64,000 nucleotides of DNA from an uncultured Candidatus Saccharibacteria bacterium. GTDB lineage: Bacteria; Patescibacteriota; UBA1384; CAILIB01; JAUSJZ01. How positions within the stretch are numbered: position 1 is the first letter of the stretch; every line of letters begins with the position of its first letter. The notes under the pieces are model-generated. The model did no database searches. It worked only from the letters and a program-made list of their open reading frames with translations, and had not been told where the DNA came from. The DNA lies in the NCBI GenBank assembly GCA_964421635.1, contig CAYQWZ010000004.1:15652-79651 (forward strand). Direction: 5' to 3'. A program made the position numbers and the translations under genes. Shown here piece by piece: positions 12,101-58,974 of the stretch.

Positions 12101-12130
12101 ATTATGCGCATAAATATTTGGCTTTTGCAC

Positions 12131-12159
12131 TTGACAAATGGTCTTTTTTTTGATAATGT
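12131..12159 (+). promoter_or_regulatory. near-consensus sigma70 promoter (TTGACA-17 nt-TAATGT) driving the GC-rich unit
   Basis: TTGACA at 12131-12136 and TAATGT at 12154-12159 with an exact 17-nt spacer. The predicted start site is near 12166. Confidence 0.6.
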
Positions 12160-12165
12160 ATTTGC

Positions 12166-13112
12166 ACGCTCGCATGTAGGGCCGCCCCATGATGGGCAGG
12201 CCAACACCCGAGCGCATTAACAACACGGTCCTGACATGTCACCTTGTAGCTCATCTTGGGCTACGGTGGGTGAATGCCCGGATCTCTCAGCTACGAGGGA
12301 ACTCGTAGACGCTACCCTAGATTGGAGTACCGTGTGACGAAGCCCGCGTGCTTCGTAGCGAGGAGCCACACCGTGCGGGACGGTGGTTAGGCTTTCCGGC
12401 ACCAAGCGTTGGTGACCAGGGCTCACAGGGTGGGTGCACTTGCCAGAGAGAGCCAGACAGGACTCTAAGAAGTTAGTCCCTGGCTTAACTTGGTAGGGCG
12501 TCCGCCTTGGCACAAGTACATCGACAGCGCAGTCGGGCTCGGGTGGGTGGCTCGAACGCCACTTCCCTGAGCCCGCCATCATCACTCTGAACCGCTCCGC
12601 TACAAAAGCGGCGGCGACCCATCGCGAAGAAGACGAAGGAGAGACAGATCATGATGCTCCGCGGACCGACGATGGCGCTGCACCGCAGCGACCATAAGAC
12701 CACCTGATCGACGCGCGCCACGGCCGCCTACTCGGCCGGCCGGCAGTAGGCTCTAACGCCTCTAGCCGGCCGGCCCCACCAACACCCTAGTACAAGAAAG
12801 GGTATAGTCGTGAATCAGCTGAACATCTAGGGGGTGTCTGCAACGCCTCCCTAAGACCACCTAAATTCCCAGAGAGAGACTGAATTCACTACCAGTCACC
12901 TCTCAGGTCAAGCTCGAGAGAGTATGCAGCCGGCAGCCGGATAGCTGACAGTCTCGCAAAGCCTGCGAGCCGAGTGAACAAGGCAAAACAAAAGAAAGGA
13001 GTACCGCATGCAGCGGTACCCGACCGGATTTCGTTAACTCGTGGGCTTCGGCCCACGGACAACCAAAGACCCGCGCCATGATCCCTTCGGGGTGAGCGCG
13101 GGTCTTCGCTTT
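12166..13112 (+). ncRNA. candidate large (~950 nt) GC-rich structured ncRNA of unknown class between def and fmt
   Basis: This ~1 kb block is far GC-richer (roughly 60% by eye) than the flanking low-GC DNA. It has no sense-strand ORF of 60 aa or more. Strand-specific UUCG tetraloop hairpins are present (GTGGGCTTCGGCCCAC and CCCTTCGGGG), along with long perfect stems such as GGCCGGCCGGC...GCCGGCCGGCC. It runs from a consensus promoter to an intrinsic terminator. Confidence 0.5.
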
Positions 13113-13116
13113 GTCT
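13067..13116 (+). terminator. intrinsic terminator ending the GC-rich unit
   Basis: 10-bp GC stem AGACCCGCGC...GCGCGGGTCT around a CCCTTCGGGG hairpin, followed by the T-rich tract TCGCTTTGTCT. Confidence 0.55.
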
Positions 13117-13141
13117 AAAAATTTAAATCCTGCTACCCTTA

Positions 13142-20379: not shown

Positions 20380-20532
20380 ATGAAACTAATGACAAAACGC
20401 AAATCGCAAAAGAATTCTGATAATAAAGATGTGAAGCTTCCTAAGGTAGTGGAGTCTTTAATTATCCACGAAAAGCCAAAAAATGCTAAGAGTGTAGAAA
20501 AGATTCTTAACGAAATGCGTTACGGTTCTTAA
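20380..20532 (+). CDS. small ORF (50 aa) immediately upstream of the PIN gene, candidate antitoxin
   Basis: ATG at 20380, a basic N-terminus (MKLMTKRKSQK...), and a stop 5 nt before the PIN start codon. The position and size are typical of VapB-type antitoxins. No fold could be assigned. Confidence 0.3.
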   Translation: MKLMTKRKSQKNSDNKDVKLPKVVESLIIHEKPKNAKSVEKILNEMRYGS

Positions 20533-20537
20533 TTTGC

Positions 20538-20999
20538 ATGTCAAAATGCATTTTATTGGTAGACGCTAATGTTTTTTCTTCTTTGTTACACAAAGATGAC
20601 GCTTTGCATAGAAATGCCAAAGAAATCTTTGAAATAATATCAAAAAATAATAAGGTAAAAATTATTGTTCCACCCATAATACTATACGAAATTTGTACAG
20701 TAGCACTTAAAAAAGGAATCGATAAAAAGATAATCAAAGAAAAAACTCAGAGAATTATTGACTGGAATAAGGTTTCTATTGTTTCTTTATCTGAACTTTC
20801 TATATATAAACACATTAATAGAACTGCTAGGAATCATGTAAGAGAACCAGCTATTAAAACAAATGACCTAATTATTCTCAACACTGCACTAGAACTAGAT
20901 GCAGCTTTAGTGTCAACAGACAAAAAACTACTAAAAAGCGCTAAAAGACTAAAAGTGCCTTGTTGTAGAAATAGTGAAGATCTACTCGGTCTTCTTTGA
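20538..20999 (+). CDS. PIN-domain protein (VapC-like ribonuclease toxin)
   Basis: The N-terminal ILLVDANVFSSLL carries the first PIN acidic residue, with conserved acidic positions downstream. The ~150 aa size fits a standalone PIN toxin. Confidence 0.65.
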   Translation: MSKCILLVDANVFSSLLHKDDALHRNAKEIFEIISKNNKVKIIVPPIILYEICTVALKKGIDKKIIKEKTQRIIDWNKVSIVSLSELSIYKHINRTARNHVREPAIKTNDLIILNTALELDAALVSTDKKLLKSAKRLKVPCCRNSEDLLGLL

Positions 21000-21190: not shown

Positions 21191-21508
21191 ATGACAAAAA
21201 AAAGAAAAGAAGGAAACGCTTATCTAATTCCACCCCGTGGCACTCGTAAAACAGTCGCTCGAATATTAGTACAGTTAACTGATGAAGCAGTAGATGATCA
21301 AAAGAAGTTGCAGCAACTATATGTACTGGCTGACAGATTACGCTATTTTCTAAATACTGACCAAGAAGATATTCATAATGGTTTAGGTACAGAAATTGCC
21401 TGCTGGATAGGCCTACTAATCACCACACACGAAATGGGTCTTGAATATCGAAAAAACCTTATTGAGATATTTCCTGAAGAGCTCGATATATTTGCAGACT
21501 CCAAGTGA
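21191..21508 (+). CDS. hypothetical protein (105 aa), translationally coupled to the CYTH gene
   Basis: ORF with no recognisable motif. Its TGA stop overlaps the GTG start of the next gene (GTGA). Confidence 0.4.
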   Translation: MTKKRKEGNAYLIPPRGTRKTVARILVQLTDEAVDDQKKLQQLYVLADRLRYFLNTDQEDIHNGLGTEIACWIGLLITTHEMGLEYRKNLIEIFPEELDIFADSK

Positions 21509-22056
21509 ACAAAGAAATTGAAGTAAAAATTGAATTAACCAAGAAAGAATTTAATTCTTTAGTTAAAAATTTTACTAACCCTGACTTAGAAAAAACCTAC
21601 GGTTATTTTAAAGATGATTTTTCAAATATTAAAGAAGGCATTTTCCCACGCATAAAAACTATTACGGGTGAAAATAACAAAATATTATTTGCTGTTAAAA
21701 GAAAAGTAGAAGATAATGATAATTTTTTCGAAAGGGAAGAGTTAGAAGTGACAGTTCAAGAAGAGAAAGAAAGTGTCGAGATGTTACGATTAATGCTTAA
21801 ATCTTTGGGTTTTACCAAAGAAATCATTTTTGAAAAGAAACGAAAAAATATAGTTAAAAAAGATATCGTCATCTCATACGATCATCTTCCCTTTGGTTAT
21901 TTTGTTGAATTTGAAGGTGCACCTAAAATCATTGAACAATATTTAAAAGAATATAAGTTAACTAAAAAACCACGCATCACTAAAGCATATTTAGCTCTTT
22001 GGTACGACTACAAAGAAAAGAATAATATATCTAAAGATAACTGCGAATTTAACTAA
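21505..22056 (+). CDS. CYTH-domain protein (triphosphate tunnel metalloenzyme / class IV adenylate cyclase-like)
   Basis: The N-terminal EIEVKIEL matches the defining CYTH EXEXK motif, and the ~180 aa size matches CyaB/thiamine-triphosphatase-like enzymes. Confidence 0.65.
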   Translation: MNKEIEVKIELTKKEFNSLVKNFTNPDLEKTYGYFKDDFSNIKEGIFPRIKTITGENNKILFAVKRKVEDNDNFFEREELEVTVQEEKESVEMLRLMLKSLGFTKEIIFEKKRKNIVKKDIVISYDHLPFGYFVEFEGAPKIIEQYLKEYKLTKKPRITKAYLALWYDYKEKNNISKDNCEFN

Positions 22057-22058
22057 TA

Positions 22059-22817
22059 TTATTCGGTTTTTGAAACCGCATCGCGATACAAACAGTAATC
22101 GCACTCTTCGTTAGCTTTAGGCAGCTTCTTCGACTTCAAACATTTATGGGCAGCTATAATAGATTGCTCAACCCAAGCATCGTCACCCTTATGAGCTATC
22201 AAAGTGACATCGAACTCTAATTTAGCGTCAAAGGCCTTCTTATCAGTATTACCGTTGCAGTAAACAAAGTAGCCGGTATCTGAGACCGGCAAACCTTTCT
22301 GTCGCAACAGCCACTGATAAATCTCCATCTGCCGTTTGTATCCGTCATGCCAATCTTGGTCAAGGATAGTAATCTCATCGTTCTTACTCGTCGCTTTATA
22401 ATCTACGACTATGTACTCCCCCGCACTATTAATCCATAAATCATCAATGGCACCCGTAATGGTTAAGCCCGTCGGTTCGTGAACAATAGATACACCCTTG
22501 AAGTTCTCTCGCCATTCGTCTAGCTCTTCGTGGGCTACGGGCTTAGCGTCAATGCCATATTTTTCTTGTAGCGGATGCTGCTTGTCTTTCGCCCGATAAA
22601 GGTCAAACTCTTTTTTTAATAATGTGTCAACGGCTGTATTTAGGTTAAAAGGATATCCCTTTGGTCGCCCCAACCCCAAACGGTTGTCTAAATAAAAACA
22701 ACGCGGGCATTGTAAAAAGAGGTCGAGTTTAGATCGGCTAAGTTTAAACTGGTTCTTGGTAGTAGGATTAAAGTTCCAGTTGCTATTGCGCGGGATTTTG
22801 TAGTATTTAGACATCAC
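22059..22817 (-). CDS. Cas4-like PD-(D/E)xK nuclease with Fe-S cysteine cluster (RecB-family, DUF83-like), no CRISPR nearby
   Basis: N-terminal CPRC, motif II IDDLWI, motif III VVDYK, the QxxxY motif (RQMEIYQWL) and C-terminal C-x12-C-x2-C. Its start overlaps the stop of the tandem-HEPN gene by 4 nt. Confidence 0.6.
   Translation of the reverse strand: MMSKYYKIPRNSNWNFNPTTKNQFKLSRSKLDLFLQCPRCFYLDNRLGLGRPKGYPFNLNTAVDTLLKKEFDLYRAKDKQHPLQEKYGIDAKPVAHEELDEWRENFKGVSIVHEPTGLTITGAIDDLWINSAGEYIVVDYKATSKNDEITILDQDWHDGYKRQMEIYQWLLRQKGLPVSDTGYFVYCNGNTDKKAFDAKLEFDVTLIAHKGDDAWVEQSIIAAHKCLKSKKLPKANEECDYCLYRDAVSKTE
22064..22098. repeat. 35-bp imperfect direct repeat, copy B (inside the 3' coding end of the Cas4-like nuclease gene)
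   Basis: See copy A at 20996-21030. The two copies bracket the two-gene CYTH cassette. Confidence 0.7.
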
Positions 22818-23905
22818 AAATTATTTTTTATCAATTCAGGTAATTTAACGCGTAACAGATTTAAAAAGTCATCTGCTAATTTTTTACAATTAATATGCCA
22901 TCTGTCAGCTTCGTAAATGTAACTAATAGCCTTGCCTTCTGAATCAATACTTAAATCGTATGGTCCATCTGACTTTTTTCCAAAATTATGTACTAGATTG
23001 TGCCTAAATATTTTTACAATATCGTCTCTGATATTACCTTCGTCATCAACAATCTCATTGTAATTTTGATTTTTTTTGTTACGCTTACAATCTATTACAT
23101 CTTTGTCATATAGTTCCTTTAATGTTCTCTTTACGTTAAGGTTTGTATTACCATCGATACCAAACTTATCATTAAAGATTGATCCCCAAACATCAAATAA
23201 TGCTGCCAATAAAACAGCGTAAGAATTAGATGGTCCTTCGAAATTGCTCGTTGAATAATTGTACGAAAAAGTTTTGCTATAGATATTCTCGATATCTCTT
23301 ATTGTCCATGTATACAGCCTAACTAGTAAATCAATTTTTATTGTTTTTATTCTTTCAGGTTTTGGTTCCATTATTGAATTATAAACATGAATAAAATTAT
23401 CTTGAAGATCACTATTGTTTTCAAGCATTTTAACATAACCAGTGTTGTCATTGATCACTGAGTCTTCAATGTCTTGTGCCAGAGTAAAAATACTCACCCA
23501 TAGCTTCTTAATGCCATCGAACTCCTCAATAATTAAATGTTTTGATCTATCATTGTGAATATATGCCCAAGTATATTTTTGATGTCCACAGTATACTGTT
23601 GGCTGCATCATAGCCTGATGTACTAAGGGATGACGGAATATATTCTGTACTAAAAAGGCTACATTTTCTTTTTTATAACTCATTCTGTCTTCCATATATT
23701 TTCTGGCATTATATGAAACACTGTATTTACTGGTAGAACCCTTATATAAAGCGCCCAATAAGTCTATTGTGGAGAAACAGTATAATAAACCAGGAAAAGG
23801 AGCTATGCCATCATCTTTTAAGACACAGTGCCTAACGTCCTCAATTAATGAATTTATTCTGTCGTTAAGAAATATTCGGGCTTCGTTTGAATTAAATTCC
23901 TTCAT
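22814..23905 (-). CDS. protein with two Rx4H (HEPN-like) motifs, candidate RNase/abortive-infection-type effector
   Basis: Two copies of IFRH-LVH (FRHPLVHQAMMQ and FRHNLVHNFGKK) each match the HEPN R-x4-6-H motif, suggesting an internally duplicated HEPN protein. It lies between hsdR and the Cas4-like nuclease with overlapping junctions. Confidence 0.45.
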   Translation of the reverse strand: MKEFNSNEARIFLNDRINSLIEDVRHCVLKDDGIAPFPGLLYCFSTIDLLGALYKGSTSKYSVSYNARKYMEDRMSYKKENVAFLVQNIFRHPLVHQAMMQPTVYCGHQKYTWAYIHNDRSKHLIIEEFDGIKKLWVSIFTLAQDIEDSVINDNTGYVKMLENNSDLQDNFIHVYNSIMEPKPERIKTIKIDLLVRLYTWTIRDIENIYSKTFSYNYSTSNFEGPSNSYAVLLAALFDVWGSIFNDKFGIDGNTNLNVKRTLKELYDKDVIDCKRNKKNQNYNEIVDDEGNIRDDIVKIFRHNLVHNFGKKSDGPYDLSIDSEGKAISYIYEADRWHINCKKLADDFLNLLRVKLPELIKNNL

Positions 23906-23915
23906 TTATTCAAGC

Positions 23916-26867
23916 CTACTCCTCGTTAGTTTTATCTAATTTTTCATACACCTCTTCAAACATTTTTTCTTTCACAAACTTACCAAATTCCGCATTTTCT
24001 ACAATCTTTTTGTATATATCAAAATTAGACTCAACCATAGTGTGCAATTGATCCTGAAAGATATGGGCAAAAACAAGCTTGAGAGCGTCTTTGTTATTTG
24101 TTTTGGCGCTTTGACTCAAGGTTTCGTTTCCTGTCAATCTCGTTTGTAGTTCGGCAAAGAATACTTTGTCACCTTCGGTGAAGTCAGTACCAAATCGTTC
24201 GTTCACTTCGTCAATTATGCGCGACAAAAATTCTTTTTCTTCGCCCATACCTTTACCTGTTCCCAGTCCCTCAATCGGCTTCAATTCACCGGTCTTTTTC
24301 TCCAGTTCAATATTGCCGCTGGATATTTGCTGGATGCGGTAAGTGTCCATATTCACATTGTCGGTAATTTCCACCGGCAATCTTTCTTTTTCGGCAGGTA
24401 ATTTACGCCCAAACATTCGCAAAAAGGCATAAAGTTTTTCTAAGTTCACATCCTTAAACGAGACAATCTGCGATAAGAAGGCATACATACGGACATAGTT
24501 TATTAATTGATCACGGAAATCAATTTTTTCTTTTTTTTCGCGCTTTAAATATTCTTCGACAATCGGGTCCAAAAGCGGATGTAGTTTTTCTTGCGTTGCT
24601 CCACGCTTGAAAAATACTTTGGCAAAGCTCTCCACATCATCTTTGGTAAAAATATCAAAATCAAGCAAGTTGCGCTCCAAATCATAAAGCTTGTTCGGGT
24701 CGGTTGCTTTGGTCAAAATCGCTTTGTCGTAATACGGCTGAAATGCTTTTTTTATTTCTTCTTCATAGTTGGCAAAATCCAAAACCAGCGTGTCCTCTTT
24801 ACCTTTGGTAGTGCGATTGAGCCGGCTCAAGGTCTGCACGGCCATCACACCACCTAATTTTTTATCAACATACATCGTATGAAGCAAAGGCTGATCGAAT
24901 CCGGTCTGGAATTTATTTGCTACTATCAAAATCTTAAATTCAGGTAATTTAAAGGTGTCGGCGGTGAGTTTATCGCTTCGCAAACCATTCATTCCGGCTT
25001 CGGTATATTCTTTTCCGCCGTCAGTTACCGTGCCGGAAAATGCCACCAAAGTTTTGATAGAATACTTGTGTTCTTTGATGAACTTGTCAAAAGCAAGTTT
25101 GTAGCGCACTGCGTGCAAACGCGAACGGGAGATAATCATCGCTTTGGCGTAGCCATCAATTTTGTGCGTAGTGTGCGACAGATAGTGTTCAATAATTAAT
25201 TCTGTTTTTTTACCAATAGCATGGTCATGCAACTCCACATATCCTTTTAAGAGCGCGATGCCCTTTTTCTTTTCATACTGCGGATCTTCTTCGGTTTTTT
25301 TGATCAAATTAAAGTAGGTCTGGAAGGTGGTGTAATTTTTTAAGACATCCAAAATAAAACCTTCTTCGATAGCTTGTCGCATTGAATACAAGTGAAAAGG
25401 TTCAAAAGTGCCATCGGCTTTTTTGGTACCGAAAAGTTGCATAGTTTTATCTTTCGGCGTAGCAGTAAAAGCAAAGAAGCTGATATTTTTTTGTCTGCCT
25501 CGGCTTGATAATTCCGCCAAAATCGCGTCTTCGCTCGTTAACTCTTCTTCGTTCTCATTCTCTGTTTCCGCTTCTTCCAGTGACCCAAGTGCTTTTTTTA
25601 AACTCTTGGTGCTCTCCCCAGATTGCGAAGAATGCGCCTCGTCAATAATCACGGCGAATTTTTTGCCTTCTTGTTTGATAAGTTCCTCCACGATGTAAGG
25701 AAATTTTTGCAAAGTGGAAACAATAATTCTTTTGCCAGATTCCAGCGCTTCTTTAAGTTGTTTTGAATGTTCGTCAATCGCCGCCACTACACCCTCCACT
25801 TGCGCGAATTGCCTGACTTCATCGCGAAGCTGTTTATCAATCACGCGTCGATCGGAAATAACAATCGCGGTATCAAAAATTTTCTGATCATTAGCATCGT
25901 GTAAACTGGAAAGTTTGTGAGCAAGCCATGAAATTGTTTTTGTCTTTCCACTTCCGGCGCTGTGCTGAATGAGATATTGCTGTCCGGCTCCGTGCTCTCG
26001 CGCGTGAGCCACCATTTTTCGCAGTGCATCCAACTGATGATAGCGCGGAAAAATAAGCGTCTCTTTTTCTTTTTGATTACCTTCCTCGTCCGTTGTCTTT
26101 TCAATAGATACGAGCATAAATTCGGCAATAATCTGAAGCAGGCTGTTTTTTTGCAAAACTTCTTCCCATAAATACGCGCTCTTGAACCCGCTCGGATTCA
26201 CCGGATTGCCAGCGCCGTTTTCAAAACCTTTGTTAAACGGCAAAAAGAATGTGGATTTGCCAGCCAAACGCGTGGTCATATACACGAGATCATTATCTAT
26301 GGCGAAATGCACCAAACAGCGCTTAAAGGCAAAAAGATCTTCGCGCGGGTCGCGGTCATAGCGATATTGTTTGATGGCGTCCTGTACATTTTGTCCGGTC
26401 AAATAGTTTTTGAGCTCCAGCGTAGAAATCGGCAAACCATTCAAGAAAATGACAGTATCAAGCGACTTGCCGTCTTTTTGGCTAAACTTCACCTGTCGCA
26501 TTATGGAAAAAATATTGTTCTGGTGGAGTTGGGCGTGTTCCGGATTCAAGGTGCTTTCGGGCGCAAAATACACCAATTGAAAACGCGAACCATAATCGGC
26601 AAAACCTTTGCGAAATACATCTAAAATCCCACGCGATTCAATTTCTGTTTTGAGACGATAAACAAATTTTGATTTTACTTCTTCGCCGTGCTGTTCTTTG
26701 AGTTTCTCCCATTCTTTTGGCTGGGTGGCGTAGATAAATTCAAAAAGCATTTCCTCGTCCATGCAGGATTCGGCATTGTAATTTTTTGGCTCACGTGCAC
26801 GATAGCCGGAAGCGGTCAAAACCGTTTCAATGTGCGCTTCAAATGACTTTTCTGATGTATCAATCAT
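23916..26867 (-). CDS. hsdR: Type I restriction enzyme R subunit (HsdR)
   Basis: 983 aa with an N-terminal PD-(D/E)xK region, SF2 helicase motifs (QHSAGSGKT, VIIDEAHSSQSG, and TGFD within the motif-VI region) and a C-terminal helical domain. Confidence 0.9.
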   Translation of the reverse strand: MIDTSEKSFEAHIETVLTASGYRAREPKNYNAESCMDEEMLFEFIYATQPKEWEKLKEQHGEEVKSKFVYRLKTEIESRGILDVFRKGFADYGSRFQLVYFAPESTLNPEHAQLHQNNIFSIMRQVKFSQKDGKSLDTVIFLNGLPISTLELKNYLTGQNVQDAIKQYRYDRDPREDLFAFKRCLVHFAIDNDLVYMTTRLAGKSTFFLPFNKGFENGAGNPVNPSGFKSAYLWEEVLQKNSLLQIIAEFMLVSIEKTTDEEGNQKEKETLIFPRYHQLDALRKMVAHAREHGAGQQYLIQHSAGSGKTKTISWLAHKLSSLHDANDQKIFDTAIVISDRRVIDKQLRDEVRQFAQVEGVVAAIDEHSKQLKEALESGKRIIVSTLQKFPYIVEELIKQEGKKFAVIIDEAHSSQSGESTKSLKKALGSLEEAETENENEEELTSEDAILAELSSRGRQKNISFFAFTATPKDKTMQLFGTKKADGTFEPFHLYSMRQAIEEGFILDVLKNYTTFQTYFNLIKKTEEDPQYEKKKGIALLKGYVELHDHAIGKKTELIIEHYLSHTTHKIDGYAKAMIISRSRLHAVRYKLAFDKFIKEHKYSIKTLVAFSGTVTDGGKEYTEAGMNGLRSDKLTADTFKLPEFKILIVANKFQTGFDQPLLHTMYVDKKLGGVMAVQTLSRLNRTTKGKEDTLVLDFANYEEEIKKAFQPYYDKAILTKATDPNKLYDLERNLLDFDIFTKDDVESFAKVFFKRGATQEKLHPLLDPIVEEYLKREKKEKIDFRDQLINYVRMYAFLSQIVSFKDVNLEKLYAFLRMFGRKLPAEKERLPVEITDNVNMDTYRIQQISSGNIELEKKTGELKPIEGLGTGKGMGEEKEFLSRIIDEVNERFGTDFTEGDKVFFAELQTRLTGNETLSQSAKTNNKDALKLVFAHIFQDQLHTMVESNFDIYKKIVENAEFGKFVKEKMFEEVYEKLDKTNEE

Positions 26868-26868
26868 A

Positions 26869-27216
26869 TTATTTTTTCGTTAAATATAGACAAACAATAT
26901 AAATTATTAAAGATGGTATCCCAACCGATAAAGCTAATGTCCAATTTTGTGTAGGGATAACTCCGACTGCAAAACCAAAACCCGCGGATGATATAAATTC
27001 AAAAAAAGTGATTAGCCAATAATTTTTTAGCTTTTCTTCCAAAATAACATTTCTTTTTTCAATTTCATATTTTTCCGTGCGTATCTTTTCTGCTTCATCC
27101 TGCGTCTTCTTCAAAGATGCTTCCAAATTATTTATTTTTTCGGACATCAATTTATATGCCGTCGTGGTTGACTGCTCTTTCTTTGTCAGCGTGTTTTGTG
27201 ATTTATTCTTCGCCAT
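26869..27216 (-). CDS. small coiled-coil protein with C-terminal double transmembrane hairpin, embedded in the R-M operon
   Basis: N-terminal heptad-rich region (LEASLKKTQDEAEKIRTEKYEIEKRNVILEEKLK), then two hydrophobic helices. Its stop abuts the hsdR start. Confidence 0.4.
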   Translation of the reverse strand: MAKNKSQNTLTKKEQSTTTAYKLMSEKINNLEASLKKTQDEAEKIRTEKYEIEKRNVILEEKLKNYWLITFFEFISSAGFGFAVGVIPTQNWTLALSVGIPSLIIYIVCLYLTKK

Positions 27217-27217
27217 A

Positions 27218-27586
27218 TCAGTTAAAAAGTTCAGTTAATGATATTGGCGACCAACCAAATGATTTTATTGGTTTAATGTTCGGTATTTGTGGAATAGCTG
27301 GAATTGGCGGTATTTGTGGAATAGCTGGAATTGGCGGTATTTGTGGAATAGGAAAAATCGGTGAAGGAAAATCGTTTGAATGCTGTGAGAAACCCGCAGT
27401 ATTGCCGTACAAATCCCTAATCACATATCCTTCAATCCAACCGCAATGCCTACCTCTATAATTGTAAATATATTGGTTGTCTTTTACATATCCAAGATTG
27501 TGTCCGTGGCGATTAAAAAATCTGCCTTGCCCATCAAGGATTATTTGCGCTGTTCCGTATCGATCAAAAAACCAAATGTTATTCAT
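27218..27586 (-). CDS. small beta-rich protein with proline/isoleucine nonapeptide tandem repeat, embedded in the R-M operon
   Basis: The N-terminus is Gly/Tyr/aromatic-rich (YIYNYRGRHCGWIEGYVIRDLYGN). The C-terminus is 2.6 copies of IPQIPPIPA, encoded by a perfect 27-bp tandem DNA repeat at ~27290-27360. Its start overlaps the hsdS stop by 8 nt. Confidence 0.4.
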   Translation of the reverse strand: MNNIWFFDRYGTAQIILDGQGRFFNRHGHNLGYVKDNQYIYNYRGRHCGWIEGYVIRDLYGNTAGFSQHSNDFPSPIFPIPQIPPIPAIPQIPPIPAIPQIPNIKPIKSFGWSPISLTELFN

Positions 27587-28934
27587 AATTTTTTATCATA
27601 ATTTTACCCGTTACGGCGCTGGTAATAAGCGCCTGTCGGTATTCTCGCAGTTTTTCAATCTGCATTTCTACTTTTTTCATCATCCCATCAATCTTTGCAC
27701 TTTCGTGGTCAATATAGTCAGCAATCTCTTTTTGCAGTGAATAAGGTGGCAATGTGATAATCAAATTTTCAATGACACCCATGCCAATATTTTGTTGCGT
27801 TCCATATGACCATGAAAACTCTACTTGATCATGAAATAATTTACTCAACAAAGAGTAAAATAAAAATATATATTGTGATTTCTTCTCATCCGCTCTAATC
27901 AGTGCCAAAGGTGACCAAATACTAAATTCAAAATCCACCTCAACTATTGCTATATTGCCGGTAGTAGCTCCGGATTTGATAAGAAAAATATCATTTTTTT
28001 GCGGTTTACATTTTTTTGAGTATAGTTTGTGAAGTTCCTCGGAAATAAAACCTCGTCTTAAATCAAAATTAATTTTTTCATTTTTTACAGCTTCGGCAGA
28101 AATAAAATTGACACCTTCGTCCAAAATTTCCGGGGTTTCGTGCGGGCCATCTGTGATTTTTATTCCTACAACTCGTTTAAGTGGTAAAGCCTGCCACCTT
28201 TCCGGAATATCACCCAGCCAGTCAATGCCGGAGGGTTTCATTTTTGCCTTCGGATCAAGGCCTTTGGTGACGGCGTGGGTGATGAGCGCTTGGCGTTTTT
28301 CTTTGAGAAGCGCCATCATCTTTTGCTTTTTCGCCACCATCTCATCAATTTTTGCCGTCTCACGGTCGAGAAAATCTGTGATCTGTTTCTGTTCATCCTT
28401 CGGAGGAGCAAATAAAAATGACTTACTTATAAATCCAGAATTCAATCCAGGTTGTGCCGAACCCCTCATTTCTAAAAATATTTGTTCTTGCCCAATCTTC
28501 GAGATTATAAAATAATATAAATATTTTGGAGTATTTTTATTGTTTGCTCTGATAATAAAAACATGTTCATTGACCGCAGCATCTTCCAAAAACGATTTAC
28601 CAATCAAAGCTGTTTTCCCAATAGTTGCGCCATCTTTAACTAATAAAACATCATTTTCTTTTATTTTACCTTGATTCATTTGGAGATAGTATTCTCGAGA
28701 AATGTATCTTGGATTCTCCAATAGTATTTCTCCATTCCATCCAACATGCTCACCGCCAATACTTAACACGCCACCGTCAAGATTGATGGATTCTGATTCA
28801 CGACCACCGCTTTGTAGTGGCTCTATAATATTTTTCAGCCGTTTCACTTCCCACCCAGTCGGAATATCGCCCAACCAGTCAATGCCGGAGGGTTTGTACT
28901 TGGAATATGTTTTGTATTTTGTCGCGGTTGTCAT
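27579..28934 (-). CDS. hsdS: Type I restriction-modification specificity subunit (HsdS)
   Basis: Two target-recognition domains separated by duplicated conserved regions (KPSGIDWLGDIPTGW and KPSGIDWLGDIPERW), plus coiled-coil spacers. Confidence 0.85.
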   Translation of the reverse strand: MTTATKYKTYSKYKPSGIDWLGDIPTGWEVKRLKNIIEPLQSGGRESESINLDGGVLSIGGEHVGWNGEILLENPRYISREYYLQMNQGKIKENDVLLVKDGATIGKTALIGKSFLEDAAVNEHVFIIRANNKNTPKYLYYFIISKIGQEQIFLEMRGSAQPGLNSGFISKSFLFAPPKDEQKQITDFLDRETAKIDEMVAKKQKMMALLKEKRQALITHAVTKGLDPKAKMKPSGIDWLGDIPERWQALPLKRVVGIKITDGPHETPEILDEGVNFISAEAVKNEKINFDLRRGFISEELHKLYSKKCKPQKNDIFLIKSGATTGNIAIVEVDFEFSIWSPLALIRADEKKSQYIFLFYSLLSKLFHDQVEFSWSYGTQQNIGMGVIENLIITLPPYSLQKEIADYIDHESAKIDGMMKKVEMQIEKLREYRQALITSAVTGKIMIKNYE

Positions 28935-28936
28935 AA

Positions 28937-29443
28937 TTAAATATCCATTAGCATTTTGGCGATTTCATCTTCCAGTTTTTTAATATCCCCGCCAATTTCA
29001 TCAAGCGGTCGCAAGGGTTTGTATTCATAAAAATAGCGCGTAAAACTAATCTCGTAGCCTACCTTGCCGATCTTGCCGTCTTTGTGATCGCAGTATTTCT
29101 TATCTTCGCTAATCCATGCGTCCGGCACATGTGGCAGGACTTCTCGCTTGAAATATTCGGTAATATCTTCGCCAAGCGAGACATTTTCATAATCGCGTAA
29201 ATCAACATCCGATTCAGGATTGCCTTTTTTGTCGGTAATGACATCGGCTGTTTCGTCGCGTTCGGAAAGACCTTTGAGAATGGCTTTTTTGACGGGAGCG
29301 TCTAGCTTAAGATTCGCTTTTTTGAAAGCTTGCTCTAATACTTCAATAAATTTTTCTTGATTTTTATAAAGTGTGTCGCCGATAGTGGCGAGTGTTTTCT
29401 GAATAGAAATTTGCAGAGCAAAACCGGCTTTTTCTTCTTCCAA
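28937..29443 (-). CDS. HsdM C-terminal-domain-like ORF (TTG start), in frame with hsdM across a single TAA: split hsdM or pseudogene candidate
   Basis: Same reading frame as the hsdM ORF at 29483-30967, separated from it only by TAA at 29483-29485 plus 13 sense codons. It has no ATG start. The content (VGYEISFTRYFYEYKPLRPLDEIGGDI) resembles the C-terminal region of long HsdM proteins, from memory. Confidence 0.45.
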   Translation of the reverse strand: MEEEKAGFALQISIQKTLATIGDTLYKNQEKFIEVLEQAFKKANLKLDAPVKKAILKGLSERDETADVITDKKGNPESDVDLRDYENVSLGEDITEYFKREVLPHVPDAWISEDKKYCDHKDGKIGKVGYEISFTRYFYEYKPLRPLDEIGGDIKKLEDEIAKMLMDI

Positions 29444-29482
29444 TTTTTTAAGCGGATCGCGCTTCTTGCTTTTAGCAAGATT

Positions 29483-30967
29483 TTAGAAAGTGGATTCGGC
29501 TTTCAGTCTTTCTAAACGCTCGGCGCTGGCTTGAAAATTAAGTTTGAGCGGGCGCTCAACGGTAATTTTGCGATAGCCAAAAAATTCATTCGGAAAGACT
29601 TTGACGATTTTACTTTTTTCGCCGTCCAAAGTAAGTTCGGTAATTTTTTGGATTTGTTCGTCAGAAATGACATTGCGTTTGTCGCCCAAGCTCTTGCGCA
29701 TTTTTTCGTAGAGATCAACTGCATTGATGAGTTTTACTTTACCCTTGTGATGATCTTTTTTGCGATTGGTCAGGACCCAAATATAGGTATGAATACCGGT
29801 ATTATAAAAAAGCTGGTTTGGTAGAGCAATGATTGTTTCCAGCCAGTCATTTTCAATAATCCAACGGCGAATTTCGCTTTCACCGCTTCCGGCATCTCCT
29901 GTAAAGAGTGGCGAACCATTCATAACAATCGCAATACGGCTTCCGCCGTTAGATGGTTTGATTTTAGTAAGCATTGTTTGCAGGAATAGCAATTGGCCGT
30001 CGCTAATTCGCGGAAGGCCGGCGCCGAATCGACCTTGAAAGCCGAACTCCGCTTCTTTTTCAATTTCTTTTTGATCTTTTTTCCATTCCTTGCCGTAAGG
30101 CGGATTGGAAAGCATATAATCAAAGGTTTCGCCAAAGAGATGATCGTGTGAAAGAGTGGAGCCAAATTTTATATTGTCAGCATTTTCGCCTTTGATCAGT
30201 AAGTCAGATTTAGCAACGGCGAAAGTTTCCGGATTTACTTCTTGACCAAACATTTCTACTTGAGCAGTATCATTTACGCTTTCCAAAATCCATTTTTTGG
30301 CTTCGGTAAGCATGCCACCGCTTCCGCAGGCCGGATCGTAAATTGTTTTAATAATGCGTTGTTTTTTCAAAATTTCCATGTCCGGCGAAAACAACAGATT
30401 GACCATCAGGCGGATAATTTCGCGCGGAGTAAAATGTTCTCCGGGATTTTCATTTGACGCTTCGTTAAACTTGCGAATCAATTCCTCAAAAACATAACCC
30501 ATTGCCAGATTGCTCACGCAATCTGGGTGCATTTCAACTTCGCTGAATTTTTCTATGACTTGATAGGTAAGATTGGCTTCTTCGAGTTTTTTTATTTGAC
30601 TTGAAAAATCAAATTTATCAAAAATTTCTCGCATTAGAGGGCTATATGCATTAAGGTACAAATTTAGATTTTTACCAATATTTTTTGGATCGTCTAAAAG
30701 TTTTTTGAAATCGTATTGTGAAGTATTATAAAAATTGTATCCGCTGGCTTTTTTTAAAATTCCGTCCATAGCTTCCAACCTACCTTTGTATTTTTCATAC
30801 TTTACCAACACATCAGCTTTAGTGTCTTCAAGCGCGGCATCAAGACGGCGCAGGACAGTAAGTGGTAAAATAACATCCGGATATTTCGCACGCTTAAAGT
30901 CATCACGTAAAAGGTTGGCGATGCTCCAGATGAAATTGACGATTTGTTGGTGATTAATTTCATTCAT
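29483..30967 (-). CDS. hsdM: Type I restriction-modification DNA methyltransferase subunit (HsdM), N-terminal and catalytic part
   Basis: HsdM_N helical domain, AdoMet motif I (IYDPACGSGGML), catalytic motif IV NPPYG, and the downstream helical region FGYRKITVERPLKLNF. Confidence 0.9.
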   Translation of the reverse strand: MNEINHQQIVNFIWSIANLLRDDFKRAKYPDVILPLTVLRRLDAALEDTKADVLVKYEKYKGRLEAMDGILKKASGYNFYNTSQYDFKKLLDDPKNIGKNLNLYLNAYSPLMREIFDKFDFSSQIKKLEEANLTYQVIEKFSEVEMHPDCVSNLAMGYVFEELIRKFNEASNENPGEHFTPREIIRLMVNLLFSPDMEILKKQRIIKTIYDPACGSGGMLTEAKKWILESVNDTAQVEMFGQEVNPETFAVAKSDLLIKGENADNIKFGSTLSHDHLFGETFDYMLSNPPYGKEWKKDQKEIEKEAEFGFQGRFGAGLPRISDGQLLFLQTMLTKIKPSNGGSRIAIVMNGSPLFTGDAGSGESEIRRWIIENDWLETIIALPNQLFYNTGIHTYIWVLTNRKKDHHKGKVKLINAVDLYEKMRKSLGDKRNVISDEQIQKITELTLDGEKSKIVKVFPNEFFGYRKITVERPLKLNFQASAERLERLKAESTF

Positions 30968-57516: not shown

Positions 57517-58974
57517 GTGATTGCATACATCAGTAGAGTCGAGGAACGCGACCCCGCAAAGTGGCTCATTGTTACTCATCATGCACCAGATTGGGACGCA
57601 ATCGCTGCTGTCACCATGTTAAATTTCTTAGGTGATAGGCAGTGGCCAGGCATTTTTGATGCCGAAGTCACCTTTAATGGTGATGGCGGCCAGAACATGT
57701 CGGGAGTAACGGAAGAAGAGCTTCTAGCCGATAAGATTCTGCATGTTGATTTCGGTGGTGGCCGCTACGATCACCATGCACATGGCGGAAGCGAAGAGAA
57801 AGTCGGCCAGTGTGCGACCTCTTTAGTTGTCGGACACTTGAACAGCACGGTTCATGTGGCCTGTCCTCACCTGCACGATTTGGTTGAGTACACGCTAGCA
57901 GTCGACAGCAACGGCTGTAGCGAAGATGAGATGCCCTTTTTCATTGATCGTCTGTTCAGACAGGCTGGCAACAGCGAGCTCATTCAGGCAGCCTTTGATA
58001 TCGCCCTCTGGGCAATCAGCTGCTTTGTTTGTTCGACCCCAATATCTGTTGAGTTCGAATGGCAGCCTTTCGTCGAAGAGTTCAGCGGTGACGACACCGA
58101 CATGATTAACTTCCTTCAGCAAGTAACACCGGAAAATCCGGGAACGCATTCTTTGGTCATGTATTTGGCCAGAATGTGGAAAATGTCAAGAGAAGAAGGA
58201 AGTCGCGAAAGAGTATACGCTATCGCTCAAACCTTCATGACATCCTATAACCAAGAGCAGATAGAGCTGCTGGAAACCGCCAAAGCGGATTTCGCTCGAG
58301 CGAAGATCTGGACACATGGCTCAGGGAAGAAGCAGATCACCGTCGCCTTCGTGCGAAGCGATTGTCCGATGCTTGGCAGACACGCCAAGAGTCGGCAAGG
58401 TGGTGACTGTACCGTCTTTGTCCAAGAGTTCACAACCGGTAGAGTCATTGTTTTCATTAACAGGCGACATCAGAATCGAATCAATGTTGCTGATGTGGTC
58501 AAGGCAGTCCGTTGGAATGAACTAGTGGCTAAAGCTGAGCAACTTGGTGAGCCAATGCCCGAGCTCATACCAGCGAAAAAGCTGGGTGGCCCCGGACGAC
58601 TTGAAGGCGAAGTGTGTTGGTGGTTCGACCAGAACACCCTCACTCTTCTCAATGGTGGCATCAAACACCCCGAAACCCCTCTGACTCGCTTAGGAGGTGA
58701 AAGAGTGTTTGAGATTGTAGTTCAGGCACTTGACCATGACTACTTTCCACCCGACTTCGCTACTTCCTGTCGTAAGGGTGAATGCCGTCATAGCAGAAGG
58801 GAAAATTGTCCCCTCTTCAACTGGCAGCTTAACCACTGCATTTCTGTCCGCCATAACGACCCCAATTGGAATAAGTCAGCTCAAACTCCAACGCCTCCAC
58901 CGCAAGATCAAGCGACACAACAGTCAACCCCAACGCAAATTCCTACTACCGTCATCAGAAAAGGTAGATGGTAA
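57517..58974 (+). CDS. DHH-family phosphoesterase-like protein (GC-elevated gene)
   Basis: DHH motifs I and II (VTHHAPDWDAIAAV) and motif III (RYDHHAHGG). The codon composition is visibly GC-richer than its neighbours. Confidence 0.55.
   Translation: MIAYISRVEERDPAKWLIVTHHAPDWDAIAAVTMLNFLGDRQWPGIFDAEVTFNGDGGQNMSGVTEEELLADKILHVDFGGGRYDHHAHGGSEEKVGQCATSLVVGHLNSTVHVACPHLHDLVEYTLAVDSNGCSEDEMPFFIDRLFRQAGNSELIQAAFDIALWAISCFVCSTPISVEFEWQPFVEEFSGDDTDMINFLQQVTPENPGTHSLVMYLARMWKMSREEGSRERVYAIAQTFMTSYNQEQIELLETAKADFARAKIWTHGSGKKQITVAFVRSDCPMLGRHAKSRQGGDCTVFVQEFTTGRVIVFINRRHQNRINVADVVKAVRWNELVAKAEQLGEPMPELIPAKKLGGPGRLEGEVCWWFDQNTLTLLNGGIKHPETPLTRLGGERVFEIVVQALDHDYFPPDFATSCRKGECRHSRRENCPLFNWQLNHCISVRHNDPNWNKSAQTPTPPPQDQATQQSTPTQIPTTVIRKGRW

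What the first reader, a model, noticed from the sequence alone, without database searches (positions are those of the whole stretch)
22059..30967. Eight-gene minus-strand defence operon: Type I R-M extended by embedded small ORFs, a tandem-HEPN protein and a Cas4-like nuclease
hsdM (plus the split C-terminal ORF), hsdS, a 122-aa repeat protein, a 115-aa coiled-coil TM protein, hsdR, a 363-aa double Rx4H protein and a 252-aa Fe-S PD-(D/E)xK nuclease are all co-directional. Their junctions are overlapping or near-abutting (about -8 to +11 nt), implying a single transcript. The two 3' genes and the two embedded genes are not canonical R-M components. The combination of R-M, a HEPN RNase-like protein, a Cas4-like nuclease and a membrane protein looks like a composite restriction plus abortive-infection module. 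I cannot match it to a described system.
Basis: partly seen in the sequence, partly recalled or inferred. Interest (0 to 1): 0.7.

Follow-up and report, generated by a model that had tools for sequence, protein, structure and literature searches.

The report
Type I restriction island with add-ons
A same-strand gene cluster in a Patescibacteria (CPR) genome is a mobile Type I restriction-modification cassette, its methylase gene broken by a stop codon, with three separable and uncharacterised defence-type modules slotted into and behind it. The principle is already known, but the add-on families are new candidates.

Summary
The ORFs, tight junctions and motifs are real. There are seven genes, not eight. 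The "split" hsdM is one gene with a single in-frame TAA, where three near-identical relatives read CAA.

The cluster is modular.
1. hsdM-hsdS-hsdR is a mobile Type I R-M unit. It is 91-97% identical at protein level in four other Patescibacteria assemblies.
2. The hsdS-hsdR gap is a cargo slot. It is empty in one relative and holds a trypsin-like peptidase in another. Here it holds a conserved two-gene cassette: a 4-fold beta-flower protein (PF21784, the domain of the anti-phage system Cernunnos) plus a small protein with two predicted membrane helices. The same pair occurs alone elsewhere and inside an unrelated Type I locus.
3. The 363-aa protein fuses two distantly homologous domains, each with an invariant R[H/N]xxxH motif. 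Each domain normally occurs as a stand-alone protein. HEPN assignment is likely but only weakly supported by fold.
4. The 252-aa nuclease belongs to the widespread CPR solo-Cas4 family. That family often sits as the last gene after diverse restriction or defence genes.

The downstream pair is absent next to the 96%-identical R-M copy. The cluster is therefore a stacked defence island, not an obligate composite system. This is a new variant of a known theme.

The parts
28937..30967 (-). hsdM, the Type I N6-adenine DNA methyltransferase. It is one 677-codon frame interrupted by a nonsense codon.
   Evidence: Pfam HsdM_N and N6_Mtase match. PADLOC MTase_I model PDLC03029 matches positions 1-495 (E 1.3e-231) and 513-659 of 661 (E 2.1e-46) in the two pieces. 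The translation is continuous apart from one stop. An intact 676-aa orthologue is present in L016.
29483..29485 (-). In-frame TAA (Q495*) that splits hsdM.
   Evidence: The window reads TAA where L015, L016 and L017 read CAA in otherwise conserved sequence.
27579..28934 (-). hsdS specificity subunit with two target-recognition domains.
   Evidence: Pfam Methylase_S matches in two stretches. PADLOC Specificity_I gives E 6.8e-115. It is only 41-42% identical to the hsdS of L015 and L016, although hsdM and hsdR there are 91-97% identical. This is the usual pattern of TRD swapping.
27218..27586 (-). 122-aa 4-fold beta-flower protein, first gene of the embedded cassette.
   Evidence: PF21784 Bflower, E 2.6e-27, covering 4-121 of the protein. 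There are 59 homologues, all PF21784. The partner gene is conserved downstream.
27281..27361 (.). 27-nt tandem repeat (two perfect copies and one 81% copy) inside the beta-flower gene. It encodes IPPIPAIPQ units.
   Evidence: Homologues of 113 aa and 122 aa differ by exactly one 9-aa unit.
26869..27216 (-). 115-aa protein, second gene of the embedded cassette. It has a charged N-terminal helical region and two C-terminal hydrophobic segments.
   Evidence: No family match in any library. Hydropathy peaks lie at about residues 64-86 and 91-112. Homologues 51-66% identical lie directly after beta-flower genes in L103, L104-106 and L107.
23916..26867 (-). hsdR, the restriction/translocase subunit (983 aa, intact).
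   Evidence: HSDR_N, SWI2_SNF2/ResIII and T1R_D3-like match. TIGR00348 gives E 1.9e-62. It is 95-97% identical to L015-L018.
22814..23905 (-). 363-aa protein with two HEPN-like domains. The N domain is about residues 1-180 (23366-23905). The C domain is about residues 187-360 (22826-23347).
23618..23635 (-). First Rx4H motif (RHPLVH, residues 91-96).
   Evidence: R91, H92 and H96 are invariant in 32 N-family sequences.
22988..23005 (-). Second Rx4H motif (RHNLVH, residues 301-306).
   Evidence: R301 and H306 are invariant in 20 C-family sequences. The second residue is H or N.
22059..22817 (-). Solo Cas4-like PD-(D/E)xK nuclease (252 aa from the GTG; the probable start is the ATG at 22814).
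   Evidence: PDDEXK_1 E 3.2e-15. Cas_Cas4 and TIGR00372 fall below their cut-offs. The RecB-type motifs and four Cys are conserved. At least 562 metagenomic relatives exist, the best 80 at 57-75% identity.

Best explanation
The region is a small defence island in a Patescibacteria (CPR) genome. It is built from evolutionarily separable modules that lie head-to-tail and are probably read through as one transcript.

Module 1 is a horizontally mobile Type I R-M cassette (hsdM-hsdS-hsdR). In this genome hsdM carries a CAA->TAA nonsense codon. If the stop is real in the cell, the M2S1 core probably cannot assemble, and both methylation and restriction are probably lost (inferred).

Module 2 sits in a defined cargo slot between the hsdS stop and the hsdR start. 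It is a self-contained two-gene cassette: a 4-fold beta-flower protein plus a small protein with two predicted membrane helices. Two things suggest its role. One is the beta-flower anti-phage protein Cernunnos. The other is the general behaviour of small membrane effectors. I infer that the beta-flower protein senses infection or is regulated by it, and that the membrane protein damages the membrane to abort infection.

Module 3 is a tandem HEPN-like protein. Its two R[H/N]xxxH motifs would form one composite RNase site within a single chain, as in Cas13 or in HEPN dimers. It would cleave RNA to arrest growth when triggered (inferred).

Module 4 is the conserved CPR solo-Cas4 nuclease. It is frequently the last gene after restriction or defence genes. 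It probably processes or degrades DNA ends made by upstream nucleases, or repairs them (inferred).

What is shown: gene content, homology, mobility of the R-M unit, slot variability, cassette conservation, and the neighbourhood statistics. What is inferred: every biochemical activity and any anti-phage effect.
For: R-M unit and slot:
- HsdR is 95-97% and HsdM 91-94% identical in four other Patescibacteria assemblies, while HsdS is only 41-42% identical.
- DNA homology to L016 covers only window 30968-28847 and 26871-23937. It stops at the hsdR 3' end and skips the slot.
- The slot holds the beta-flower and membrane-protein pair in the window, L015 and L009. It holds a 228-aa Trypsin_2 protein in L016 and nothing in L017.

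Beta-flower cassette:
- The pair recurs with 51-66% identical partners. It follows PPDK in L104-106 and purD in L103. It also lies between hsdM and hsdS of an unrelated Type I locus in L107.
- PF21784 is the domain of the experimentally active single-gene system Cernunnos (bioRxiv 10.1101/2024.07.02.601686).

363-aa protein:
- Its halves match separate families of stand-alone proteins with invariant R/H residues. No other protein among the best 150 spans both motif cores.
- The two family profiles align.
- Other members lie next to an McrB-like gene (L100) or after hsdS, a membrane protein and a DpnI-like nuclease (L010-12).

Cas4-like protein:
- I examined 26 tightly linked, co-directional upstream neighbours. 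Of these, 10-11 are restriction or defence genes: Type IIG x2, HsdR x2, GmrSD, Shedu, RT, AAA_21, RhuM, YgjP and a weak NOV_C.
- Panel hits lie upstream 19 times and downstream once. Several upstream hits are the panel proteins matching themselves. Excluding those leaves nine upstream and one downstream.
- The same layout (restriction gene, second defence gene, Cas4-like gene) occurs in L022 and L083.
Against: - The junctions (-8 to +10 nt, TGATG overlap) fit one co-translated operon. No convincing internal terminator lies at a gene junction. Terminator-like sites were, however, more frequent than in shuffled sequence across the 11-kb scanned region, on both strands (21 against 8.8). A single operon would also fit a functionally integrated system.
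- The beta-flower cassette sits in two unrelated Type I loci, and Cas4-like genes recur after restriction genes. Both patterns could reflect real functional coupling rather than mere co-location.
- Only a handful of independent contexts could be sampled for each family.
- L015, the closest relative with the same slot cargo, ends 122 nt after hsdR. Its downstream genes are therefore unknown.
- No activity was tested.
- The TAA could be an assembly or consensus error.
Confidence: 0.65

Rival explanations
1. Integrated composite system. The R-M complex, the membrane pair, the HEPN RNase and the Cas4-like nuclease work as one machine. The RNase or the membrane effector is held in check by the Hsd complex, as PrrC is by EcoprrI, and is released when a phage blocks restriction. 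The Cas4-like nuclease then finishes off the DNA.
For: - The junctions are tight or overlapping throughout.
- HEPN linkage to R-M is a documented theme, with at least 16 clades (PMC3710099).
- A C-domain homologue follows hsdS, a membrane protein and a nuclease in L010-12.
- The beta-flower pair is embedded in two different Type I loci.
- The Cas4-like family is strongly biased to the 3' side of restriction genes.
- A Cas4-family enzyme boosts pAgo defence (PMC12094033).
Against: - L016 has a 96% identical HsdR and a 94% identical HsdM but lacks all four accessory genes.
- L017 lacks the slot genes.
- Every accessory family also occurs without R-M.
- The 363-aa protein has no ATPase or other domain known to dock on Hsd subunits, and it lies outside the hsd genes.
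- hsdM is interrupted here, so the proposed guard complex may not form.
Confidence: 0.2
2. Some of the accessory genes are not defence genes. The Cas4-like protein would be a conserved CPR DNA-repair or recombination nuclease whose 5' side is an insertion hot spot for mobile defence cassettes. The beta-flower and membrane-protein pair would have a membrane or envelope role unrelated to phages.
For: - The Cas4-like proteins are far more conserved (68-75% identity) than the Type IIG enzymes upstream of them (28-41%).
- Solo-Cas4 genes are reported to evolve mainly vertically (PMC5704561).
- Eight of 26 operonic upstream neighbours are ordinary genes such as pyruvate kinase, MgtC, PMSR and TspO.
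- The beta-flower pair lies next to PPDK or purD in two of four contexts.
- Some beta-flower proteins carry lipoprotein signals, and the fold resembles lipid-binding Tubby domains (PMC10584680).
- These genes are almost absent from viral contigs, phages and plasmids.
Against: - About 40% of operonic upstream neighbours being defence genes is, from general knowledge of the share of defence genes in bacterial genomes and not from a count made here, far above what random genes would give. The neighbours are co-directional and abutting.
- PF21784 has one experimentally confirmed anti-phage member.
- A more distant beta-flower gene (L108) lies among KAP NTPase, HNH, SocA/Panacea and TIR genes.
- Precise cassette swapping in the hsdS-hsdR slot is typical of defence cargo (bioRxiv 10.1101/2024.01.29.577857).
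Confidence: 0.12

Closest known systems
EcoprrI-PrrC and RloC (anticodon nucleases linked to Type I R-M)
   Same: A HEPN-type RNase gene is physically linked to hsd genes and co-directional with them. It is proposed to act as a back-up suicide arm if restriction fails (PMC3710099).
   Different: PrrC and RloC have an N-terminal ABC ATPase and lie between hsd genes. The 363-aa protein has no ATPase, has two HEPN-like domains, and lies after hsdR. It is absent from the closest R-M relative.
Defence genes embedded in Type I R-M: TgvAB in Vibrio cholerae VPI-2, and 'guilt by embedding' (Payne et al. 2024)
   Same: Unrelated defence cassettes are nested between hsd genes. The same cassettes also occur outside such loci (PMC11411939; bioRxiv 10.1101/2024.01.29.577857).
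   Different: The cargo here is a beta-flower protein plus a small membrane protein. It has no PADLOC match. It was not found in the held supplementary files of the embedding study.
Cernunnos (anti-phage integron cassette of V. cholerae carrying PF21784)
   Same: The 122-aa protein carries the same Pfam domain, the 4-fold beta-flower.
   Different: Cernunnos is a single-gene system. Here a membrane-protein partner is conserved in all four contexts of close homologues. Direct sequence comparison was not possible, and the mechanism of Cernunnos is unknown.
HEPN superfamily, Cthe_2314-like family (PF18730), and two-HEPN effectors such as Cas13
   Same: The R[H/N]xxxH motif is invariant and the core is helical. 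Two motif-bearing domains lie in one chain, as in Cas13. Some C-family members match PF18730.
   Different: The 363-aa protein itself matches no Pfam, NCBIfam, PADLOC or PHROG family. Each domain has a beta-sheet insert. There is no guide-RNA machinery, MNT partner or sensor domain.
Solo-Cas4 of CPR/DPANN (Hudaiberdiev et al. 2017) and ACE1, the Cas4-family partner of long-A Argonautes
   Same: It is a RecB-type PD-(D/E)xK nuclease with four Cys, encoded outside CRISPR loci in small-genome bacteria. Adjacency to R-M has been noted before. ACE1 shows that a Cas4-family enzyme can boost a DNA-targeting defence (PMC5704561, PMC12094033).
   Different: It falls below the Cas4 model cut-offs. From my own recall, canonical Cas4 has C...CxxC...C, whereas the Cys pattern here is CxxC...CxxC. 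The partners here are restriction enzymes and other defence genes, not Argonaute.

Membership tests
Type I restriction-modification system | HsdM with HsdM_N and gamma-class N6-adenine methyltransferase domains | tested here: met
   PF12161 E 3.7e-26 and PF02384 E 1.2e-62. PADLOC MTase_I E 1.3e-231.
Type I restriction-modification system | All three subunit genes intact | tested here: not met
   hsdM has an in-frame TAA at codon 495, where three relatives read CAA. hsdS and hsdR are full length.
Type I restriction-modification system | HsdS with two target-recognition domains; HsdR with a nuclease N-domain and an SF2 motor | tested here: met
   Methylase_S in two stretches. HSDR_N, SWI2_SNF2, ResIII and T1R_D3-like. 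TIGR00348 gives 211.7 bits, below its equivalog-style cut-off of 284.55.
Type I restriction-modification system | Sequence-specific methylation and ATP-dependent restriction | not testable with these tools
   This needs methylome data or biochemistry.
Defence cassette embedded in a multi-gene defence system ('guilt by embedding') | Genes nested between subunit genes of a known system, with the flanking subunit genes conserved and the cargo variable | tested here: met
   The slot between the hsdS stop and the hsdR start is empty in L017. It holds Trypsin_2 in L016 and the beta-flower pair in the window, L015 and L009.
Defence cassette embedded in a multi-gene defence system ('guilt by embedding') | The same cassette is found non-embedded or in other systems | tested here: met
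   L103 and L104-106 are solo. L107 lies inside a different Type I locus.
Defence cassette embedded in a multi-gene defence system ('guilt by embedding') | Anti-phage activity | not testable with these tools
Cernunnos (PF21784 anti-phage system) | [quoted passage not shown] | tested here: met
   95.9 bits against a cut-off of 25.
Cernunnos (PF21784 anti-phage system) | Single-gene, autonomous system | tested here: not met
   A homologous membrane-protein gene follows within 1-2 nt in the window/L015, L104-106 and L107. In L103 it is the next gene, about 70 nt away as called.
Cernunnos (PF21784 anti-phage system) | Close sequence relationship to the V. cholerae protein | not tested
HEPN superfamily | Conserved Rx4-6H motif with a polar residue after R | tested here: met
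   R91/H92/H96 are invariant in 32 sequences. R301/H306 are invariant in 20 sequences, with H or N after the R.
HEPN superfamily | Profile match to a curated HEPN family | tested here: inconclusive
   The 363-aa protein matches none. Two of 20 C-family members match PF18730 HEPN_Cthe2314, best E 3.9e-6. N-family members match none. The N family is tied to the C family only by hhalign at 83.8% probability.
HEPN superfamily | HEPN four-helix fold | tested here: inconclusive
HEPN superfamily | Metal-independent RNase activity | not testable with these tools
   This needs biochemistry.
PrrC/RloC anticodon nucleases | N-terminal ABC-type ATPase fused to HEPN; gene located between hsd genes | tested here: not met
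   No ATPase domain is present. The gene lies after hsdR.
Cas4 (CRISPR-associated) | RecB-type nuclease motifs and a four-Cys cluster | tested here: met
   D125/D126, D139-Y-K141, Q163..Y167, C37, C40, C239 and C242 are at least 97% conserved in 81 sequences. Whether the cluster binds Fe-S or Zn was not tested.
Cas4 (CRISPR-associated) | Score above the curated Cas4 model cut-offs | tested here: not met
   PF01930 gives 17.7 bits against 22.7. TIGR00372 gives 33.9 bits against 65. PDDEXK_1 is the family that passes its cut-off.
Cas4 (CRISPR-associated) | Adjacent cas1/cas2 or a CRISPR array | tested here: not met
   No spaced direct repeats occur in the 64-kb window. The neighbours are the 363-aa gene and a convergent CYTH gene.

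The most novel reading that the evidence does not exclude
In CPR bacteria the conserved solo-Cas4 nuclease may be a shared terminal partner of many unrelated restriction and abortive systems. The systems seen upstream of it include Type I, Type IIG, Type IV, Shedu, reverse transcriptase and this tandem-HEPN protein. This would give a recurrent three-tier operon: restriction enzyme, then a variable second effector, then Cas4. In that operon Cas4 would process the DNA ends made by restriction, in organisms that (from general knowledge, not checked here) may lack RecBCD/AddAB. Separately, the beta-flower protein plus the small membrane protein may be a new membrane-acting abortive-infection system that travels as cargo in the hsdS-hsdR slot.
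Probability: 0.2. Interest if true: 0.7.

Novelty: new variant of a known kind. Interest (0 to 1): 0.45.

Why it matters
CPR bacteria are uncultured and mostly lack CRISPR, so their immunity is poorly known. This locus gives three concrete and testable candidates.
- A two-gene beta-flower and membrane-protein cassette. It extends the only known function of the beta-flower fold.
- A family pair of small HEPN-like proteins, seen here as a so far unique tandem fusion.
- A positional rule for the abundant CPR solo-Cas4: it is the last gene after restriction or defence genes. This hints at its long-unknown role.

The locus also documents a precise cargo slot in a mobile Type I R-M cassette.

Tried and rejected
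- Alternative genetic code as the cause of the hsdM stop: rejected. It is a single TAA, all other genes are intact, and relatives read CAA.
- Separate C-terminal hsdM gene: rejected. It is in the same frame, and one PADLOC profile spans both pieces.
- Foldseek of the 363-aa model against PDB found no hit with E <= 0.001.
- The afdb50 library was not available.
- Profile searches of both domain families against PDB sequences found nothing meaningful.
- tblastn of the beta-flower, 363-aa and Cas4-like proteins against phage and plasmid collections gave no match.
- Viral-contig scans gave zero, zero and one hit.
- I looked for a conserved neighbour of the Cas4-like gene by clustering flanking ORFs of 80 loci. 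No family was shared by more than 6 loci.
- I looked for the two HEPN-like families as adjacent genes. None were seen in the sampled loci.
- The Cernunnos sequence was not in the held supplement.
- Beta-flower and Cas4 terms were absent from the supplements of the embedding study.
- The promoter scan was not above shuffled expectation (34 against 31.6). The terminator scan was above it (21 against 8.8) but placed no site at a gene junction. Neither was used as evidence.

Full report
**Observation**

- The gaps run from an 8-nt overlap to a 10-nt spacer. They are +2, -8, +1, +1, +10, and a TGATG stop/start overlap between the last two genes.
- The locus lies between thrS/glyA on the same strand and a convergent CYTH gene.
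- The consensus promoter scan was not above shuffled expectation. The terminator scan was above it but placed no site at a gene junction. Neither adds evidence.

**The R-M core**

- hsdM, hsdS and hsdR are clear.
Positions 28937-30967 are one frame of 677 codons with a single TAA at codon 495.
- One PADLOC Type I methylase profile of 661 positions spans both pieces.
- Three near-identical relatives read CAA at that codon.
- The gene count is therefore seven, and hsdM carries a nonsense mutation or an assembly error.
- If the stop is real, I infer from general knowledge of Type I enzymes that a truncated HsdM would probably fail to form the M2S1 core. Both modification and restriction would then probably be lost, and that outcome is not lethal.

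**Mobility and the cargo slot**

A scan of species-representative genomes with HsdR found four loci, all Patescibacteria or unclassified MAGs, at 95-97% identity.
- HsdM is 91-94% identical and HsdS only 41-42%. This is the usual TRD-swap pattern.
- DNA homology between the window and L016 covers only 30968-28847 and 26871-23937. The shared unit therefore runs from the hsdM start to the hsdR end and skips the hsdS-hsdR interval.
- That interval is empty in L017 (8 nt). It holds a 228-aa trypsin-like peptidase in L016. It holds the 122-aa and 115-aa pair in the window, in L015 and in the 100% identical fragment L009.
- L017 and L018 carry broken hsdR copies, so decay of this cassette is common.
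- L016 has no homologue of the 363-aa or 252-aa genes within 10 kb downstream. It has glycosyl-hydrolase/FG-GAP and Wzy genes instead, and an Mrr gene upstream.

**The embedded pair**

- The 122-aa protein is a 4-fold beta-flower protein (PF21784, E 2.6e-27). This fold was first described in 2023 (PMC10584680).
- Its C-terminal half is a period-3 "xIP" proline-rich tract. Part of this tract is encoded by a perfect 27-nt tandem repeat. Homologues of 113 aa and 122 aa differ by one 9-aa unit.
- The 115-aa protein has no family match. It has a charged N-terminal region and two hydrophobic segments.
- I looked up four further contexts of beta-flower homologues.
  - L104-106: the pair follows a PPDK gene, with no R-M.
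  - L103: the pair follows purD.
  - L107: the pair lies between hsdM (with a DUF3800 gene) and hsdS of a different Type I system, whose HsdR has an EcoR124_C domain.
  - L108, a 47% identical homologue: there is no partner, but KAP NTPase, HNH, SocA/Panacea and TIR genes are nearby.
- The downstream proteins in L103, L104 and L107 are 51-66% identical to the 115-aa protein.
- The pair is therefore a conserved, mobile two-gene cassette that has entered two unrelated Type I loci.
- PF21784 is the only recognisable domain of Cernunnos, a single-gene integron cassette shown to protect against phages (bioRxiv 10.1101/2024.07.02.601686).
- Nesting of unrelated defence genes in Type I R-M is established. 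Examples are PrrC, TgvAB and the "guilt by embedding" study (PMC11411939 and bioRxiv 10.1101/2024.01.29.577857).
- The pair has no PADLOC match.

**The 363-aa protein**

- No curated library recognises it.
- Homology searches split it in two. Residues about 7-185 match a family of stand-alone proteins of about 200 aa. Residues about 185-360 match another family of about 165-230 aa.
- Among the best 150 of 212 hits, only an identical fragment spans both motif-bearing cores.
- In the N family, C43, D48, G56, R91, H92 and H96 are invariant. In the C family, W200, D204, W240, G241, R301 and H306 are invariant, and the residue after R is H or N.
- The two family profiles align over 110 columns, including both motifs (hhalign probability 83.8%, E 7.9e-6). 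The protein is therefore a fusion of two distant paralogues.
- R[H/N]xxxH is, from my recall of the Cas13 literature, the HEPN motif form R(N/H/K)xxxH.
- Two of 20 C-family members reach Pfam HEPN_Cthe2314 (best E 3.9e-6). The nine longer or multi-domain members I rescanned did not. The match therefore lies in single-domain members.
- An AlphaFold model with both families in the alignment has mean pLDDT 82.7.
- I rate HEPN membership as likely but not proven.
- Genomic contexts of the stand-alone relatives are mixed. Some lie among housekeeping genes (L001, L099, L013). Others lie next to an integrase (L004), next to an McrB-like EVE/AAA_5 gene (L100), or after hsdS, a small membrane protein and a DpnI-like nuclease (L010-12).
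- HEPN linkage to R-M is a known theme, with at least 16 clades. The Cthe_2314 family had no known context (PMC3710099).

**The 252-aa protein**

- It passes only the general PDDEXK_1 model. It falls below both Cas4 cut-offs.
- Its RecB-type motifs and four Cys (CxxC...CxxC) are at least 97% conserved in 81 sequences.
- No CRISPR-like repeats occur in the window.
- A metagenome scan found at least 562 relatives. The best 80 are 57-75% identical.
- None of those 80 has a homologue of the 363-aa protein nearby. No neighbour family is shared by more than six loci.
- I then took every upstream neighbour that is co-directional, within 40 nt, and at least 100 aa long. There are 26.
  - Ten or eleven are restriction or defence genes: Type IIG x2, HsdR x2, GmrSD, Shedu SduA, a reverse transcriptase, AAA_21, RhuM, YgjP-like and a weak NOV_C.
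  - Eight are ordinary genes.
  - Seven have no Pfam match.
- A panel search placed R-M or defence hits upstream in 19 genes and downstream in one. Several upstream hits are the panel proteins matching themselves. Excluding those leaves nine upstream and one downstream.
- L022 (Type IIG, Shedu, Cas4-like) and L083 (hsdM...hsdR, RT, Cas4-like) repeat the layout seen here.
- The Cas4-like proteins are much more conserved than their upstream partners (68-75% against 28-41%).
- This fits the CPR/DPANN solo-Cas4 class described in 2017, for which adjacency to R-M was noted in DPANN (PMC5704561).
- It also recalls ACE1, a Cas4-family enzyme that boosts Argonaute defence (PMC12094033).
- Whether the pattern reflects a functional partnership or an insertion hot spot upstream of a resident gene is open.

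**Conclusion**

This is a defence locus with R-M plus probable abortive-type modules.
- The comparative evidence shows stacked, separable modules rather than one obligate composite system.
- The organising principles are already published.
- Three things are new:
  - the beta-flower and membrane-protein cassette as slot cargo;
  - the tandem fusion of two small HEPN-like families;
  - the quantified 3'-terminal position of CPR solo-Cas4 after restriction genes.
- All activities remain inferred.

Noticed in passing
window 12130-13120 (+): A non-coding gap of about 1 kb lies between def and fmt. It is GC-rich (50-66% against about 39% elsewhere). It starts at a TTGACA-N16-GATAAT site and ends in a strong GC hairpin followed by a U run. 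As RNA it folds far better than shuffles (z -9.95 on the + strand, -7.2 on the - strand). It has no Rfam match at gathering score or at E <= 0.1. It is a candidate large structured RNA of unknown family.
   Followed up: partly
window 27281-27361: A perfect 27-nt tandem repeat inside the beta-flower gene encodes IPPIPAIPQ units. Homologues of 113 aa and 122 aa differ by exactly one unit, which suggests copy-number change by slippage.
   Followed up: partly
window 20380-20999 (+): A 50-aa ORF is followed by a 153-aa PIN-domain protein (PF01850, E 3.4e-14). This is a VapBC-like toxin-antitoxin pair at the edge of the island.
   Followed up: partly
window 21191-22056 (+): A 105-aa ORF with no family match overlaps by 4 nt a 183-aa CYTH-domain protein (E 2.7e-5, starting EIEVKIEL). 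The pair is convergent on the Cas4-like gene, with only 2 nt between the stop codons.
   Followed up: no
L016 4984-9996: This near-identical R-M copy has an Mrr-type restriction gene just upstream of hsdM and a 228-aa Trypsin_2 peptidase in the hsdS-hsdR slot.
   Followed up: partly
L010 27-2012 (also L011, L012): hsdS is followed by a 109-aa membrane protein, a 142-aa DpnI-like protein and a 165-aa homologue of the C domain of the 363-aa protein. No hsdR lies downstream. A VapC-like PIN gene is nearby.
   Followed up: partly
L100 1702-6711: A stand-alone N-domain homologue lies just before an 899-aa EVE(faint)/AAA_5 McrB-like gene and a 486-aa gene. This is possibly a McrBC-type system.
   Followed up: no
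L108 5363-13495: A more distant beta-flower gene without the membrane partner sits among KAP NTPase (faint), HNH_2, SocA/Panacea and TIR genes.
   Followed up: no
window 57517-58974 (+): A 485-aa ORF lies in a locally GC-rich stretch (0.49-0.54). It was not annotated.
   Followed up: no
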